Source of the DNA: a virus
Taxonomy: Duplodnaviria; Heunggongvirae; Uroviricota; Caudoviricetes
Virus record (IMG/VR): IMGVR_UViG_2537561709_000011
Length of the DNA: 8,832 nucleotides
Direction: 5' to 3' (one strand)
Shown piece after piece: positions 6,001 to 8,832 of the stretch. Position numbers: made by a program. Position 1 is the stretch's first letter. Each line of letters opens with the position of its first letter.

Positions 6001-8832
6001 GGCGGATATTGGGGGTTCAGGTATGGCGATGTTTTCCCCGCAGTACAACATCGAGATCAATAACGATGGCACGAACGGGCAGATAGGTCCGGCTGCCCTG
6101 AAGGCGGTTTATGACCTCGGGAAAAAAGCGGCAGCGGACTTTATGCAACAGCAGGCCCGTGATGGTGGTCGGTTAAGTGGAGCATATCGGTAATGGAGAC
6201 GTTTCACTGGAAAGTGCGCCCGGATATGAATGTGTATGAGCGTCGTGAGGGCGCTGGTGATGGTGTTCGTCGAAAGGTGGCGCGTTATGGCCTGCCTGGT
6301 CATTCTGTTGTGGTGCGTGACGGTGAGGGCCGGAACGGTGCAATTGACGGCGAATGTATACGCATCAATGCTACAGATGTGGTGCTGGTGGAGGGGCAAT
6401 AAAAAACCCTGAAAGATTTCTCCGGGTGCTCCAGTTGCACGTGGCAGAAATCCTTCAGGGTCAGCCGTAACGGGCCTCTGTACAGAGGGCTCCAGTTGCC
6501 CAGAGATGAGCACCCGCTACAGCCTGTTGTGATAAGCCGCTTTACAGTGAGCTCCAGTTGCTCAAAGAGGCGCGTTTTTATCACAACCTGACCGCGATAA
6601 CCCGCTGTACAGAGGGCTTCAATTGCCCAAAGAGGCGCATTCTTATCGCGGCATGACGAAATCACCGTGATGTTTTCGTCGTTCACTCATCCCGATGTGT
6701 GGGAGATGCACCGGAATGAGTGCCGAAAAGCCGCTGGCTGGCTTCATGCAGTCGGACTCAGTTGCCCGGGGCGAACACCATCAACGGCCTTTTGGTGGTG
6801 ATTATAGCGAATCGCGATAATTGAGCAAATACGGTGATGAGATGCGTATCACGGTAGCGCTAAATCGTCGCCTGCATCACTGAAGCTGTAATTTCTCCAT
6901 TCATCCTGCGGATTAATCCCCATCTCTTTCAGCGTTCTGTCTGCGGCCTTTTTCACATCGCCAAAGGTGACGAACTGCTCAGGCATACGACGGGTTTTAC
7001 TGATGCATATCGCCCGACGTCTGGCAGCTTCCTCGCGTTCACTGTCCGTTTCTGCGTGAAGAAGAACCTCAGCCCATCGGGTCGCCGCACGTCGCCATAA
7101 ACCGCGCTCCTCAAGTTTCTGTGCCACGCTGTCCGTCATCACTGGCTTTACCTCCGGCTGATTACTGCTGACTGTTTTTCTGCTTCATCTGCTCCAGTCT
7201 CCGCTTCAGTAGTTCGCTGGCTACTGATTTATCTTCTTCCGTGACTTCACCGCAAGGTTGCCCGTTCAGTCCATACCGTGCGCCGCCAGCGACAATGGCT
7301 TTCAGGTATCGCGTCGTGTGGATGTATGAGGTTAATGCGCCACGTAATACGCCATGACCAATCGCCAGTTCCCGCGCCTTCGCGTCCTGCAACATATCGT
7401 GTATCACGCCAGCCTTAAGGGGTTTTATATTCTCTGCCCCAAACAGTTCAGGCCAGTACTCAGCCAGTCGGTTTATCCTCCTGCGGTTTTTTCGCTGCCG
7501 CTTTGTCATGTGCTGCCACGGTATGCGCCGTGATGGTTTACGTGTGGTCTGGTCCTGTTGTGTGGTCTGCTGGTTCATGTTGTGCTCCTGTCATTCAGAA
7601 CGGAATATCGTCAGAGAACGGGTCATCACCTCCCGCTGGTGGCTGATTCCCCCGTGTTCCGGTCTGTCGTTTTGCTCTTTCCAGTGCTTCGGTCGCCTTC
7701 CCCTGTTGCCCCCGCTTCCCGCCAGGACGCGCCGAACGGGCACTGATTACGCTGTCAGCGATAACCTGCCAGCCCTGCCGTATTTCTCCGTTCTGTCCGG
7801 TCCACTGACTGATCTGCATGTTACCCGCCACGCTGATAAGGTCGCCTTTTTCATGTCTCGCCAGCGCGTCGGCCTGCTTACCAAATGCCAGGACTGATAG
7901 CCATAACGTCGCCTGTCCGTCCTGTGCCTGACTGCATGGCAAAGATACCGCCATACGCGCCAGCGTCATCGGTGTGCCCTTGCTGGTCTGTTTTACCTGC
8001 GGGTCGTCCACCAGCCGTCCGTAAGCTGCAATCTGTGCTGTCATGGTCTGCGCTCCTTGTTCCGGTACTCTTGGATAATACCCATTGTCATATCGAATAA
8101 ATCACAACGCCGAATTACAGTTTTCTCGGGTACAGCGGCACGATGAAAGTGACGCCCGATCGCATCACGGACTACAAAGCACCATCGGCAGAAGAGGCTG
8201 CCGTCGCCAGCCAGGCCGCGAAGCGTCCGCCGGTAGTCAACTATCCGGGGGAAGGTTTCCGGGAAATGACAAAGGCACAGTGGGCCGCCCTGCCCCGGGA
8301 CTGTAAGGCCGTGCGCAGTGTGGCAGAAGCAGAAGACCACGGGGCATACCGCTACCGCCGCACAATGGACAATAATTTCCGTCTGGTGAATGTGTATATC
8401 ACCGACATGAAAATTACGGAAATCCCACAGAAATAAGGTATATCCCCCCGGGAAATCCCCGGGGGATGACGGAGATAATGACATGCACAGTCAGTTAAAA
8501 GAACGTATCCGGCTGATGCGCGCAAGGCTGGATAACGCCGCGCCGGTTGCTGAAATCCGGGCTGAATCTCAGCTTTTTGTGACTCCTGCCCCGGTCTGTG
8601 ATCGCCTGGTGACGCTGGCGGAGATCAGCAACCGTGATCACATTCTGGAACCCTCTGCCGGCACCGGGGCCATACTGCGGGCGATTCGGGATACCGCACC
8701 GGAGGCCATGTGTGATGCGGTGGAAATCAACAGCGGGCTGGTCCGGTATCTGCGGGAAAATTTTAACGGTGTCAGGGTTCAGTGTGGCGACTTCATGGAA
8801 TGGCAGCCGGTGCAGTATTACAGCCGGGTTAT

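What the first reader, a model, noticed from the sequence alone, without database searches (positions are those of the whole stretch)
7162..7578. Mobile-element-encoded minimal FinO/ProQ-domain protein with an Arg/Lys/Gln-rich N-terminal arm
The core clearly matches the FinO/ProQ RNA-binding domain. The 40-residue N-terminus (QQTTQQDQTTRKPSRRIPWQHMTKRQRKNRRRINRL) is strongly basic, and it lacks the ProQ C-terminal Tudor-like domain. Such proteins usually bind structured 3' ends of sRNAs or antisense RNAs. A structured RNA with a terminal hairpin is encoded about 300 bp away on the same strand.
Basis: partly seen in the sequence, partly recalled or inferred. Interest (0 to 1): 0.6.

Follow-up and report, generated by a model that had tools for sequence, protein, structure and literature searches.

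The report
Island-encoded FinO/ProQ-type RNA-binding protein
The gene is a real, already annotated small FinO/ProQ-family RNA-binding protein from a satellite-like E. coli island, ordinary in itself, but it sits beside a conserved multi-hairpin RNA whose units are antisense copies of a hairpin in a Shiga-toxin phage gene, which suggests a testable RNA link between island and phage.

Summary
The ORF at 7162..7578 (minus strand, 138 aa) is real. It is a FinO/ProQ-domain protein by Pfam (E 7e-26), by PDB sequence matches (ProQ, RocC, FinO, NMB1681) and by an AlphaFold model that superposes on RocC and FinO. It has no Tudor-like C-terminal domain. Its basic N-terminus is conserved across the subfamily. 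It is neither ProQ, FinO nor FopA proper. RefSeq already annotates it as a 'ProQ/FINO family protein', always chromosomal.

The window is a three-part mosaic. The gene's native home is a PICI-like island (int-alpA-primase-ssb-proQ-like-perC), not the flanking phage tail or plasmid DNA.

Downstream of perC on the same strand lies a ~395-nt RNA of seven hairpins ending in an intrinsic terminator. Compensatory changes and a strong G·U excess on that strand support it. Its repeat units are antisense copies of a hairpin inside the giant polyvalent-protein gene of short-tailed Stx phages.

Best reading: a dedicated chaperone for this antisense-type RNA, working like FinO/FinP. That is inferred, not shown. 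The main rival ligand is the island's C4/IsrK-type RNA.

The parts
7162..7578 (-). CDS of the 138-aa FinO/ProQ-domain protein. Residues 1-17 are disordered and Q/T-rich. The motif PWQHMTKRQRKNRRRINRL (20-38) is conserved and basic. The FinO domain spans about 31-136.
   Evidence: ORF. Pfam PF04352 E 7.4e-26. PDB sequence hits. AF2 model pLDDT 84.4. Foldseek finds RocC, FinO, NMB1681 and Lpp1663. N-terminal motif nearly invariant in 35 homologues.
7585..7589 (-). Shine-Dalgarno AGGAG, 7 nt upstream of the ATG at 7578. It supports the 138-aa start over the Met24 start used in some 115-aa annotations.
   Evidence: Sequence. The PW..HMTK motif upstream of Met24 is conserved at protein level in 50%-identical homologues.
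7595..8044 (-). Single-stranded DNA-binding protein gene, 16 nt upstream of the ProQ-like gene in the same operon.
   Evidence: Pfam SSB E 4e-15. phrog_44 E 9e-40. Conserved neighbour in all related islands.
6849..7142 (-). PerC-family regulator gene, 19 nt downstream of the ProQ-like gene in the same operon.
   Evidence: Pfam PerC E 2.7e-29. Conserved neighbour in all related islands.
6801..6828 (-). Promoter-like block TTGCTC-16 nt-TATAAT directly after the perC stop. It is the most conserved stretch of the region. It would start transcription near 6793, at the foot of the first long hairpin.
   Evidence: Invariant in 9 island variants (alignment A4). Coordinates. It was missed by the consensus scan because the -35 hexamer matches only 3 of 6. 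This is a prediction only.
6400..6793 (-). Predicted structured RNA of about 395 nt. It is either the 3' UTR of ssb-proQ-perC or a separate sRNA. Hairpins: B 6793->6725, C 6722->6684, D 6680->6655, E 6652->6591, F 6587->6526, G 6523->6464, and terminator T 6461->6406 followed by a U-tract 6405->6400. Hairpins B, E, F, G and T carry the apical motif GNGCAAYUGRAGCNC.
   Evidence: Fold z = -7.3 on the minus strand against -5.1 on the plus strand. Direct repeats found. Consensus structure of 138 pairs, 98.7% of cells paired, 11 pairs with compensatory changes. 100 G·U cells against 9 A·C cells, which places the structure on the ProQ-sense strand. Coordinates.
6591..6652 (-). Hairpin unit E, the antisense copy of a hairpin inside the polyvalent-protein (LPD5/MuF_C/LPD38) gene of short-tailed Stx-converting phages.
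   Evidence: 88-92% identity over 61 nt to the phage CDS, with the window plus strand equal to the CDS sense strand. 56/61 match to the LPD38 allele co-resident with the island in O103:H2 12009. Duplex energy -115 kcal/mol against about -50 for shuffled targets.
6221..8106 (.). The block of the window that derives from the PICI-like island. DNA to the left is lambdoid tail genes. DNA to the right is F-like plasmid leading region.
   Evidence: 99.9% identity to E. coli chromosomes over exactly this span. Abrupt junctions. The junctions are absent from every collection searched.

Best explanation
The gene encodes a minimal FinO-domain RNA chaperone. It belongs to the replication and accessory operon (primase-hyp-ssb-proQ-like-perC) of a PICI-like integrative island found mostly in Shiga-toxin-producing E. 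coli.

Like FinO, RocC and ProQ, it most likely clamps the base of a terminator hairpin and buries the 3'-terminal nucleotide in a conserved Tyr/Arg pocket. The conserved basic N-terminal helix would add non-specific RNA contacts.

The best candidate ligand in this window is the roughly 395-nt multi-hairpin RNA (6793->6400, same strand). It ends the same operon in a strong intrinsic terminator. By analogy with FinO/FinP-traJ, the protein would protect this RNA and promote kissing and duplex formation between its hairpins and the complementary hairpin in the late mRNA for the giant polyvalent protein of 933W-type Stx phages.

Shown here: domain identity, fold, conservation of pocket residues, operon context, RNA structure and its strand, and antisense identity to the phage gene. 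Inferred: RNA binding, choice of ligand, and any effect on the phage.

My sub-confidences are: FinO-domain protein 0.97; binds hairpin plus 3' tail RNAs 0.75; array RNA is a cognate ligand 0.4; the system acts on Stx-phage mRNA 0.25-0.3.
For: Domain and fold:
- Pfam E 7.4e-26 and PDB sequence hits.
- AF2 model pLDDT 84.4, pTM 0.72.
- Foldseek top hits are RocC with and without its terminator RNA (E 2.5e-7, target TM up to 0.84, rmsd 2.4 A) and FinO (rmsd 1.9 A).

RNA-contact residues defined in the RocC-RocR structure (PMC9674577) are kept:
- Gly52 corresponds to G57, Arg75 to R79, Tyr87 to Y91, Arg97 to R101.
- G57 and Y91 are invariant and R101 nearly invariant in 35 homologues.

The N-terminal motif MTKRQRKNRRRINRL is nearly invariant.

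Operon:
- Gaps are 16 nt (ssb to proQ) and 19 nt (proQ to perC), with no terminator before 6461.

RNA:
- Fold z = -7.3.
- 11 compensatory pairs and 98.7% of cells paired, against about 40% when partners are slid.
- 100 G·U against 9 A·C cells; alifold energy -158.9 sense against -132.6 antisense.
- The terminator has a GC-rich base and a U-tail.

Co-distribution:
- 116 of 5426 complete E. coli genomes carry the gene and 113 carry the full RNA region.

Phage link:
- The unit matches 183 phage records, almost all Stx-converting Sepvirinae.
- Phage alleles of the hairpin differ by compensatory changes in the stem.
- Island units mirror different phage alleles, and island variants carry the alternative allele at up to 98% identity.
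- About 97 of 113 island genomes also carry the phage gene, against about 6% of the other genomes.
Against: - No experiment exists; RNA binding is inferred from homology.
- The N-cap serine of the family (RocC Ser70, ProQ Ser53) is glycine here (G74).
- The ssb-proQ-perC module is conserved in Salmonella and in a second E. coli island type that lack the array RNA. The subfamily's ancestral ligand must therefore be something else.
- Known FinO-family proteins are not usually encoded next to their RNA, so adjacency is weak evidence.
- The co-occurrence with Stx phages is confounded by STEC phylogeny.
- The covariation rests on only 9 closely related sequences. Part of it reflects allele swaps with phage DNA rather than independent mutations.
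- The promoter is a prediction and failed the standard consensus scan.
- The function of the hairpin within the phage gene is unknown.
Confidence: 0.4

Rival explanations
1. The protein is the chaperone of the island's own immunity-type antisense RNA of the C4/P4-CI/IsrK family, or of other island transcripts. It would thereby control expression of the antirepressor-primase operon, and so island derepression and replication. The array RNA would be unrelated cargo.
For: Rfam finds C4 antisense RNA (73.8 and 71.1 bits, cut-off 45) with isrK and c4-a1b1 matches upstream of the primase operon. This holds in both the E. coli (L076) and the Salmonella (L008) islands, so this RNA co-occurs with the ProQ-like gene where the array does not. 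Characterised plasmid FinO-family proteins (FinO, FopA) each serve an antisense RNA that controls a key gene of their own element (PMC9977716; PMC7491321).
Against: P1, P7 and P4 use C4/CI RNA without any FinO-family protein (established knowledge, not tested here). C4/CI RNA is matured by processing and does not end in a terminator with a U-tail, which is the preferred FinO-domain substrate (from memory). That region is absent from this window.
Confidence: 0.25
2. The protein is a promiscuous ProQ-like chaperone that plugs into the host RNA network. It would bind many 3' UTRs and sRNAs and, together with the PerC-like regulators, rewire host or virulence gene expression.
For: Minimal FinO-domain proteins such as NMB1681 bind hundreds of RNAs (PMC9977716). 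The gene always sits next to PerC-family regulators. A 'proQ/FINO family' cluster was listed as pathogen-specific (PMC5571608). Host ProQ regulates EHEC virulence genes (PMC12426089).
Against: Mobile-element FinO proteins studied so far are highly selective, a property attributed to their N-terminal extensions (PMC9977716). This protein has such a conserved extension.
Confidence: 0.15
3. The protein is a replication-module accessory. It would act with the island's primase and SSB on primer RNA, RNA-DNA hybrids or single-stranded DNA, not on a regulatory RNA.
For: The gene order primase-(hyp)-ssb-proQ-like is invariant across islands with two different primase types, D5_N/DUF5906 and DUF927.
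Against: No FinO-domain protein is known to act in replication priming. The conserved pocket recognises an RNA 3' end with 2' and 3' hydroxyls (PMC9674577). Gene order in satellites often reflects timing of expression, not shared function.
Confidence: 0.08
4. The hairpin array is not an RNA partner at all. It would be a DNA-level feature: a remnant or hot spot of recombination with Stx-phage DNA, or a mimic of a phage DNA site. The ProQ-like protein would have nothing to do with it.
For: Units are exchanged with phage alleles. One island variant has lost exactly one unit by recombination between repeats (L023). Both strands fold better than shuffles.
Against: The 100 G·U against 9 A·C asymmetry and the lower consensus energy favour an RNA on the ProQ-sense strand. 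That strand also has a U-tailed terminator. Similarity to the phage stops at the foot of the hairpin, with no flanking coding sequence. Five diverged units are all kept foldable.
Confidence: 0.1

Closest known systems
FinO with FinP antisense RNA and traJ mRNA (F-like plasmids)
   Same: Both are FinO-domain proteins on a mobile element with a basic N-terminal extension ahead of the domain. The fold superposes (rmsd 1.9 A). The proposed ligand is a multi-stem-loop antisense RNA ending in a terminator, whose hairpins are complementary to hairpins in the target mRNA.
   Different: Identity is only 27-30% and the NCBIfam FinO score is 55.8 against a cut-off of 136. There is no FinO_N domain. The element is a chromosomal island, not a tra operon. 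The putative target is on another replicon (a phage), so the antisense would act in trans. It is also present as several allele-like units, not one cis-encoded copy.
FopA (YafB) with Inc RNA and repZ (IncI1 plasmid pCol1B9/ColIb-P9)
   Same: Both are small FinO-domain proteins without a Tudor domain, with a positively charged N-terminal region, encoded on a mobile element.
   Different: Identity is 33% over 86 residues. The N-terminal sequence is unrelated. FopA is 200 aa against 138 aa here. FopA is on plasmids, whereas this subfamily was found on no plasmid.
RocC with RocR (Legionella), the structural paradigm for terminator recognition
   Same: RocC is the best structural match. The pocket residues Gly, Tyr and Arg and the N-cap arginine are conserved.
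   Different: RocC has a long C-terminal extension, is a chromosomal core gene and acts on competence mRNAs. Its N-cap Ser70 is Gly74 here.
Minimal ProQ homologues NMB1681 (Neisseria) and Lpp1663 (Legionella)
   Same: All have a single FinO domain of about 120-140 aa with no C-terminal domain. Both are found by sequence and fold search.
   Different: Those are chromosomal. NMB1681 is a global RNA binder. They lack the conserved PW..HMTKRQRKNRRR motif.
PICI / P4-like phage satellites of Enterobacteria
   Same: The native island has int, alpA, an AntA or Bro antirepressor, Icd-like and Ash genes, C4/IsrK RNA and a D5_N or DUF927 primase. ProQ/FinO-like and PerC genes have been listed as PICI accessory genes in Enterobacter (PMC13612085).
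   Different: No capsid-redirection or packaging genes were recognised in the E. coli islands. No helper phage is known. An RNA-level link to a helper phage has not been described for PICIs in the papers I could search.

Membership tests
FinO/ProQ domain family (Pfam PF04352) | Profile match above the curated threshold over the whole domain | tested here: met
   90.7 bits against a cut-off of 27, E 7.4e-26, profile positions 4-108 of 109.
FinO/ProQ domain family (Pfam PF04352) | FinO fold: helical core plus beta-hairpin | tested here: met
   AF2 model pLDDT 84.4. All 26 Foldseek hits with E <= 1e-3 are RocC, FinO, NMB1681 or Lpp1663. The next hit has E > 1.
FinO/ProQ domain family (Pfam PF04352) | 3'-nucleotide pocket residues (RocC Gly52, Tyr87, Arg97) and N-cap arginine (Arg75) | tested here: met
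   G57, Y91, R101 and R79 align to them. They are invariant or nearly so in 35 homologues. Residue roles come from PMC9674577.
FinO/ProQ domain family (Pfam PF04352) | Conserved N-cap serine (RocC Ser70, ProQ Ser53) | tested here: not met
   The aligned residue is G74. The model helix starts at residue 75, so Gly is the capping residue. This is not disqualifying: S70A in RocC was reported to have a less dramatic effect than the other N-cap mutations.
FinO/ProQ domain family (Pfam PF04352) | Binding of hairpin plus 3'-tail RNA | not testable with these tools
   Needs EMSA, ITC or CLIP.
ProQ proper (chromosomal global chaperone) | Linker plus C-terminal Tudor-like domain; equivalog-level similarity | tested here: not met
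   The protein is 138 aa and ends after the domain. NCBIfam ProQ equivalog scores 59.8 bits against a cut-off of 127.
FinO proper (F-like plasmid fertility inhibition) | FinO-type N-terminal region, location in a tra region, subfamily-level similarity | tested here: not met
   NCBIfam FinO scores 55.8 bits against a cut-off of 136. There is no FinO_N Pfam hit. Identity to plasmid FinO is 28-30%. All 304 E. coli copies are chromosomal.
FopA (YafB) branch | Close similarity including the FopA N-terminal domain | tested here: not met
   33% identity over 86 aa and no alignment of the N-terminus.
PICI-type phage satellite (the element that carries the gene) | int - alpA - primase/rep core, about 10-17 kb, site-specific insertion | tested here: met
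   Seen in native loci L001, L004-L009 and L076-L083. These islands lie beside yicC, or downstream of a CSD-family (cold-shock domain) gene. None of this core lies in the window.
PICI-type phage satellite (the element that carries the gene) | Induction, replication and packaging by a helper phage | not testable with these tools
   There are only indirect hints: co-occurrence with 933W-type Stx prophages and sequence exchange with them.

The most novel reading that the evidence does not exclude
A PICI-like island of Shiga-toxin-producing E. coli carries a two-part RNA weapon or sensor aimed at its putative helper, the 933W-type Stx phage. The first part is a roughly 395-nt RNA made of several hairpin units. 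Each unit is an antisense copy of a different allele of a structured hairpin embedded in the phage's giant polyvalent-protein gene. The second part is a dedicated FinO-domain chaperone, encoded two genes upstream, that stabilises this RNA and drives kissing-loop pairing with the phage late mRNA. This would be the first trans-acting, multi-allele 'antisense array' with its own FinO-family matchmaker, and the first RNA-level interaction between a satellite and its helper.
Probability: 0.25. Interest if true: 0.8.

Novelty: new member of a known kind. Interest (0 to 1): 0.5.

Why it matters
By itself the protein adds one more uncharacterised branch to a well-known family. RefSeq already labels it correctly.

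What makes it worth an experiment is the context. It sits in a conserved ssb-proQ-perC module in satellite-like islands of STEC. It lies next to a structure-conserved RNA whose hairpins are antisense to, and exchange alleles with, a hairpin inside a late gene of Stx-converting phages.

If the protein chaperones that RNA, it would extend the FinO/FinP principle from cis-antisense control within one plasmid to trans-antisense conflict or signalling between two mobile elements. It would also give a handle on Stx-phage biology in pathogenic E. coli.

The question can be tested directly with RIP-seq, Northern blots and phage-yield assays in available strains such as O103:H2 12009.

Tried and rejected
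- **Rfam.** The whole window gave no hit on either strand at E <= 1, so the array RNA is not a described family.
- **Tandem Repeats Finder.** It found nothing. The repeats, 76-84% alike with a 62-65 nt period, only appeared with the repeat finder.
- **Promoter scan.** The consensus scan found none in 6100-8832. The TTGCTC-16-TATAAT block was seen only through its invariance in the alignment.
- **Coding potential of the array.** The 128-aa minus-strand ORF 6300..6686 crosses the terminator. Indels of 1 and 4 nt in other island variants break it. On the plus strand the units lie 61, 62 and 65 nt apart, so they fall in different frames. I rejected it as coding. The peptide-like look of the units (PLYRGLQLP) comes from their origin in the phage CDS.
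- **Known families.** I considered ProQ, FinO or FopA proper and rejected each.
- **Plasmid or phage origin of the gene.** No plasmid copy exists beyond remote FinO. Among phages only Sodalis phiSG1 (43%) and Cronobacter JK004 (32%) match.
- **Defence system.** PADLOC gave no hits for ProQ-like, PerC, SSB or the two flanking hypothetical proteins.
- **Source of the mosaic.** Exact junction patterns were searched in GTDB species genomes, IMG/VR and JGI metagenomes, and the junction regions in 5426 complete E. coli genomes. None was found.
- **An analogous array elsewhere.** I looked downstream of perC in the Salmonella and 175-aa-type E. coli islands and found none. Salmonella has a terS-like small ORF and short repeats there. 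The E. coli type has a 740-nt gap with terminator-like hairpins.
- **IncI1 reference.** The R64 accession was not in the collection, so ColIb-P9 was used instead.
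Full report
**1. Observation**

The window has an ORF at exactly 7162..7578 on the minus strand. It has an ATG start, encodes 138 aa, and has AGGAG seven bases upstream. Residues 1-40 hold 12 Lys/Arg, 2 acidic residues and 7 Gln.

Pfam places residues 31-136 on the ProQ/FINO model over its whole length (E 7.4e-26, 90.7 bits, cut-off 27). phmmer against all PDB chains returns only FinO-family structures: ProQ N-terminal domain, RocC, FinO, NMB1681 and Lpp1663.

An AlphaFold2 model was built on 35 homologues. It has mean pLDDT 84.4 and pTM 0.72. Residues 1-17 are disordered. The helices are 26-41, 58-69, 75-86 and 89-97, followed by a beta-hairpin at 100-111 and a final helix at 114-137. 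Foldseek against the PDB gives 26 hits with E <= 1e-3, all FinO-family proteins. RocC (rmsd about 2.4 A) and FinO (rmsd 1.9 A) lead, and the next hit has E > 1. There is no room for a Tudor-like domain.

**2. Which kind of FinO-domain protein**

The protein scores well below NCBI's cut-offs for ProQ (59.8 against 127) and for FinO (55.8 against 136). It is 33% identical to FopA/YafB of ColIb-P9 over 86 residues, with an unrelated N-terminus.

Residues that contact the terminator RNA in the RocC-RocR crystal structure (PMC9674577) are conserved. These are G57, Y91 and R101 in the 3'-nucleotide pocket and R79 in the N-cap motif. The N-cap serine itself is glycine (G74).

The 'arm' is not just low-complexity sequence. 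The motif PW(Q/R)HMTKRQRKNRRRINRL is nearly invariant in homologues down to about 50% identity. Its second half is a predicted helix continuous with helix 1 of the domain. Conservation of the PW..H motif upstream of Met24, together with the Shine-Dalgarno sequence, favours the 138-aa start over the 115-aa start used in some records.

In a library of 1.84 billion representative proteins there are 1508 relatives at E <= 1e-3, 87 at E <= 1e-10 and one at E <= 1e-30. This is a small clade of a large family.

**3. Where the gene really lives**

The window is a mosaic of three parts.
- Bases 1-6237 are lambdoid tail genes, ending with the tape-measure gene and the first codons of gene M (97-99% identity to phages cdtI and mEp460).
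- Bases 6221-8106 are 99.9% identical to E. coli chromosomes.
- Bases 8102-8832 are 100% identical to the leading region of pO157 and thousands of F-like plasmids.

The two junctions are abrupt, with 17 and 5 bases of microhomology. Neither junction occurs in 5426 complete E. coli genomes, in GTDB species representatives, in IMG/VR or in JGI metagenomes. The junctions create chimeric ORFs at 6193..6402 and 8041..8484. I cannot tell whether this is a rare recombinant, a misassembly or a construct. The flanks therefore should not be used to interpret the gene.

The exact protein is listed in 5235 blocks of the assembly collection. In every place inspected it lies in an island next to yicC with this gene order: integrase, AlpA-type regulator, AntA antirepressor, small ORFs, D5_N/DUF5906 primase, hypothetical, SSB, ProQ-like, PerC, then more PerC genes and a Q-type antiterminator.

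Variants with 53-87% protein identity sit in equivalent islands at other sites in E. coli and Salmonella. Some of these have a DUF927-type primase. The order ssb-proQ-perC is always kept.

Rfam finds C4 antisense RNA and isrK upstream of the primase operon in both E. coli and Salmonella islands. This is the architecture of PICI / P4-like satellites. A 2026 survey of Enterobacter satellites lists ProQ/FinO-like and PerC genes as PICI accessory genes, from annotation only (PMC13612085).

In E. coli, 116 of 5426 complete genomes carry a close copy. All 304 matches, including the weaker ones, are chromosomal. No plasmid carries this subfamily, and no isolated phage carries a relative closer than 43% identity. 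A 2017 comparison listed 'proQ/FINO family proteins' among pathogen-specific RNA-binding clusters (PMC5571608). I found no functional study.

**4. The neighbouring RNA**

Between the perC stop (6849) and the stop of a convergent 128-aa gene (6402) lie 446 unannotated bases. Three 62-65-nt direct repeats are present. On the ProQ strand the region folds far better than shuffles (z = -7.3). It ends in a 25-pair hairpin (6461->6406) followed by a U-tract, which is a strong intrinsic terminator on that strand only.

I aligned nine island variants of 87-100% identity. The consensus structure has seven long hairpins and 138 pairs. 98.7% of cells are paired, against about 40% when partners are slid by 1-3 columns. 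Eleven pairs show compensatory changes. Paired cells include 100 G·U but only 9 A·C, and the consensus energy is -158.9 kcal/mol for this strand against -132.6 for the other. The selected structure is therefore on the strand that also encodes ProQ-like and PerC, which argues for an RNA.

Five hairpins carry the same apical element, GNGC-AAYUGRA-GCNC. The most invariant stretch of the region is TTGCTC-16 nt-TATAAT (6828->6801). It would start an RNA at about 6793, exactly at the foot of the first long hairpin. This promoter is a prediction. Without it, the structure is the 3' UTR of the ssb-proQ-perC transcript. In either case the RNA ends in the kind of 3' structure that FinO domains recognise.

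The full region occurs in 113 genomes against 116 for the gene. It is absent from the Salmonella islands and from the 175-aa-type E. coli islands. It matches no Rfam family.

**5. The unexpected link to Stx phages**

One repeat unit (6591-6652) is 88-92% identical over 61 nt to a segment inside an 8.4-kb gene annotated 'LPD38/LPD5 domain-containing protein'. That gene encodes a 2793-aa polyvalent protein with LPD5, LPD1, MuF_C and LPD38 domains. The segment lies just after the MuF_C domain.

In the phage collection the unit matches 183 records. Almost all are Stx-converting short-tailed phages, including VT2-Sakai, phage 86, phi24B and Ss-VASD. The window's plus strand corresponds to the sense strand of the phage gene, so the island RNA is antisense to the phage mRNA.

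The phage segment is itself a hairpin. Phage alleles keep the tip GGGCUYCAAUUGCCC but have different, mutually compensated stems: GCCGCGAUAA/UUAUCGCGGC in one type and AACCCUGAUGG/CCCGUCAGGGUU in another. Similarity between island and phage stops at the foot of the hairpin.

Different island units resemble different phage alleles. Unit E resembles the first type, and units G and T the second. Island variants carry the alternative inner variant of the first type, up to 98% identical to the 933W-type allele. This points to ongoing exchange between phage and island.

In O103:H2 12009, whose island is 99.9% identical to the window block, the resident phage allele matches unit E at 56 of 61 positions. 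The predicted intermolecular duplex energy is -115 kcal/mol, against about -50 for shuffled targets.

Combining two searches, about 97 of 113 island-carrying genomes also carry the phage gene, against about 6% of the remaining genomes. Shared STEC ancestry inflates this association.

**6. Mechanism**

Shown: the protein has the FinO fold and keeps the terminator-binding pocket. It is co-transcribed, by spacing, with ssb and perC. The transcript ends in a conserved, highly structured RNA with a U-tailed terminator. The hairpins of that RNA are antisense to a structured hairpin in a late phage gene.

Inferred: the protein binds the 3' hairpin and tail of this RNA, protects it, and promotes kissing and duplex formation with the phage mRNA. 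This is what FinO does for FinP and traJ (PMC9977716). The outcome could be interference with the phage, or sensing of phage late transcription by the island. I put the full chain at about 0.25-0.3 and the narrower claim that the array RNA is a cognate ligand at about 0.4.

The strongest rival is that the conserved ligand is the island's C4/IsrK-type RNA, because that RNA accompanies the gene in lineages that lack the array. A promiscuous ProQ-like role and a role in the replication module are further alternatives. PADLOC recognises none of these proteins as a known defence component.

**7. Verdict**

The protein is an uncharacterised member of a known family and is already annotated as such, so on its own it is of modest interest. 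The context raises the interest: a satellite-like island, a conserved module, and a structured antisense-type RNA that mirrors a Stx-phage hairpin. That context is new as far as I could search, and it is directly testable.

Noticed in passing
window 1-6237 / 6221-8106 / 8102-8832: The window is a three-part mosaic: lambdoid tail genes, a block of a PICI-like chromosomal island, and F-like plasmid leading region. The junctions are abrupt, with 17-nt and 5-nt microhomology. Neither junction was found in any public collection searched. They create chimeric ORFs at 6193..6402 (+) and 8041..8484 (-). It may be a rare recombinant, a misassembly or a construct.
   Followed up: yes
L003 6001-6061 (EDL933 prophage), L024-L026, L027-L075: The giant polyvalent-protein gene (LPD5/LPD1/MuF_C/LPD38, about 2790 aa) of short-tailed Stx phages contains, just after MuF_C, a roughly 60-nt hairpin. 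Its tip is constant and its stems are allele-specific and mutually compensated. This points to a functional RNA or DNA element inside a coding sequence, of unknown role.
   Followed up: partly
L076 5756-5946; L008 5674-5878 (native islands, outside the window): C4 antisense RNA (RF01695), with isrK and c4-a1b1 matches, lies upstream of the primase operon of the islands. This is a P1 immI / P4 CI-type immunity RNA and a rival ligand for the ProQ-like protein.
   Followed up: partly
window 6849-7142 (-) and L001 11238-11709: A PerC-family regulator gene lies directly downstream of the ProQ-like gene. Native islands carry two or three PerC-family genes plus a Q-type antiterminator, so the island is rich in regulators. 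This is potentially relevant to LEE control in STEC.
   Followed up: no
window 6193-6402 (+); L001 11794-12180: A convergent 128-aa hypothetical gene is conserved in the islands and has no Pfam, PHROG or PADLOC hit. Its stop codon abuts the U-tract of the array terminator. In the window only its last roughly 58 codons remain, fused to the first 11 codons of phage gene M.
   Followed up: partly
L023 (E. coli JNEC-KY176 island): This island variant lacks exactly one 65-nt hairpin unit of the array, so unit number varies by recombination between repeats.
   Followed up: no
L086 6834-7574 (E. coli island with the 175-aa ProQ-like variant): A 740-nt gap after perC has three terminator-like hairpins and fold z = -3.8, but no similarity to the array. 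It may be a different non-coding cargo at the same position.
   Followed up: partly
L008 / L010 downstream of perC (Salmonella islands): A small ORF at this position (called as an 80-aa gene in L010 and L011, uncalled in L008) reads to me like a terminase small-subunit-like protein; this was not tested with any profile search. It is followed by short CTGCGCA-type repeats, where E. coli has the hairpin array.
   Followed up: no
window 8442-8467: A GC-rich near-perfect palindrome, ATCCCCCCGGGA/TCCCCGGGGGAT, lies between the DUF3560-like ORF end and the SAM-methyltransferase gene in the plasmid-derived part.
   Followed up: no
window 2390-3156 (+): Two consecutive ORFs (2390..2818 and 2827..3156) lie upstream of the tape-measure gene, in the position of the lambda G/GT tail-chaperone pair. 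I did not check whether a -1 frameshift site is present.
   Followed up: no
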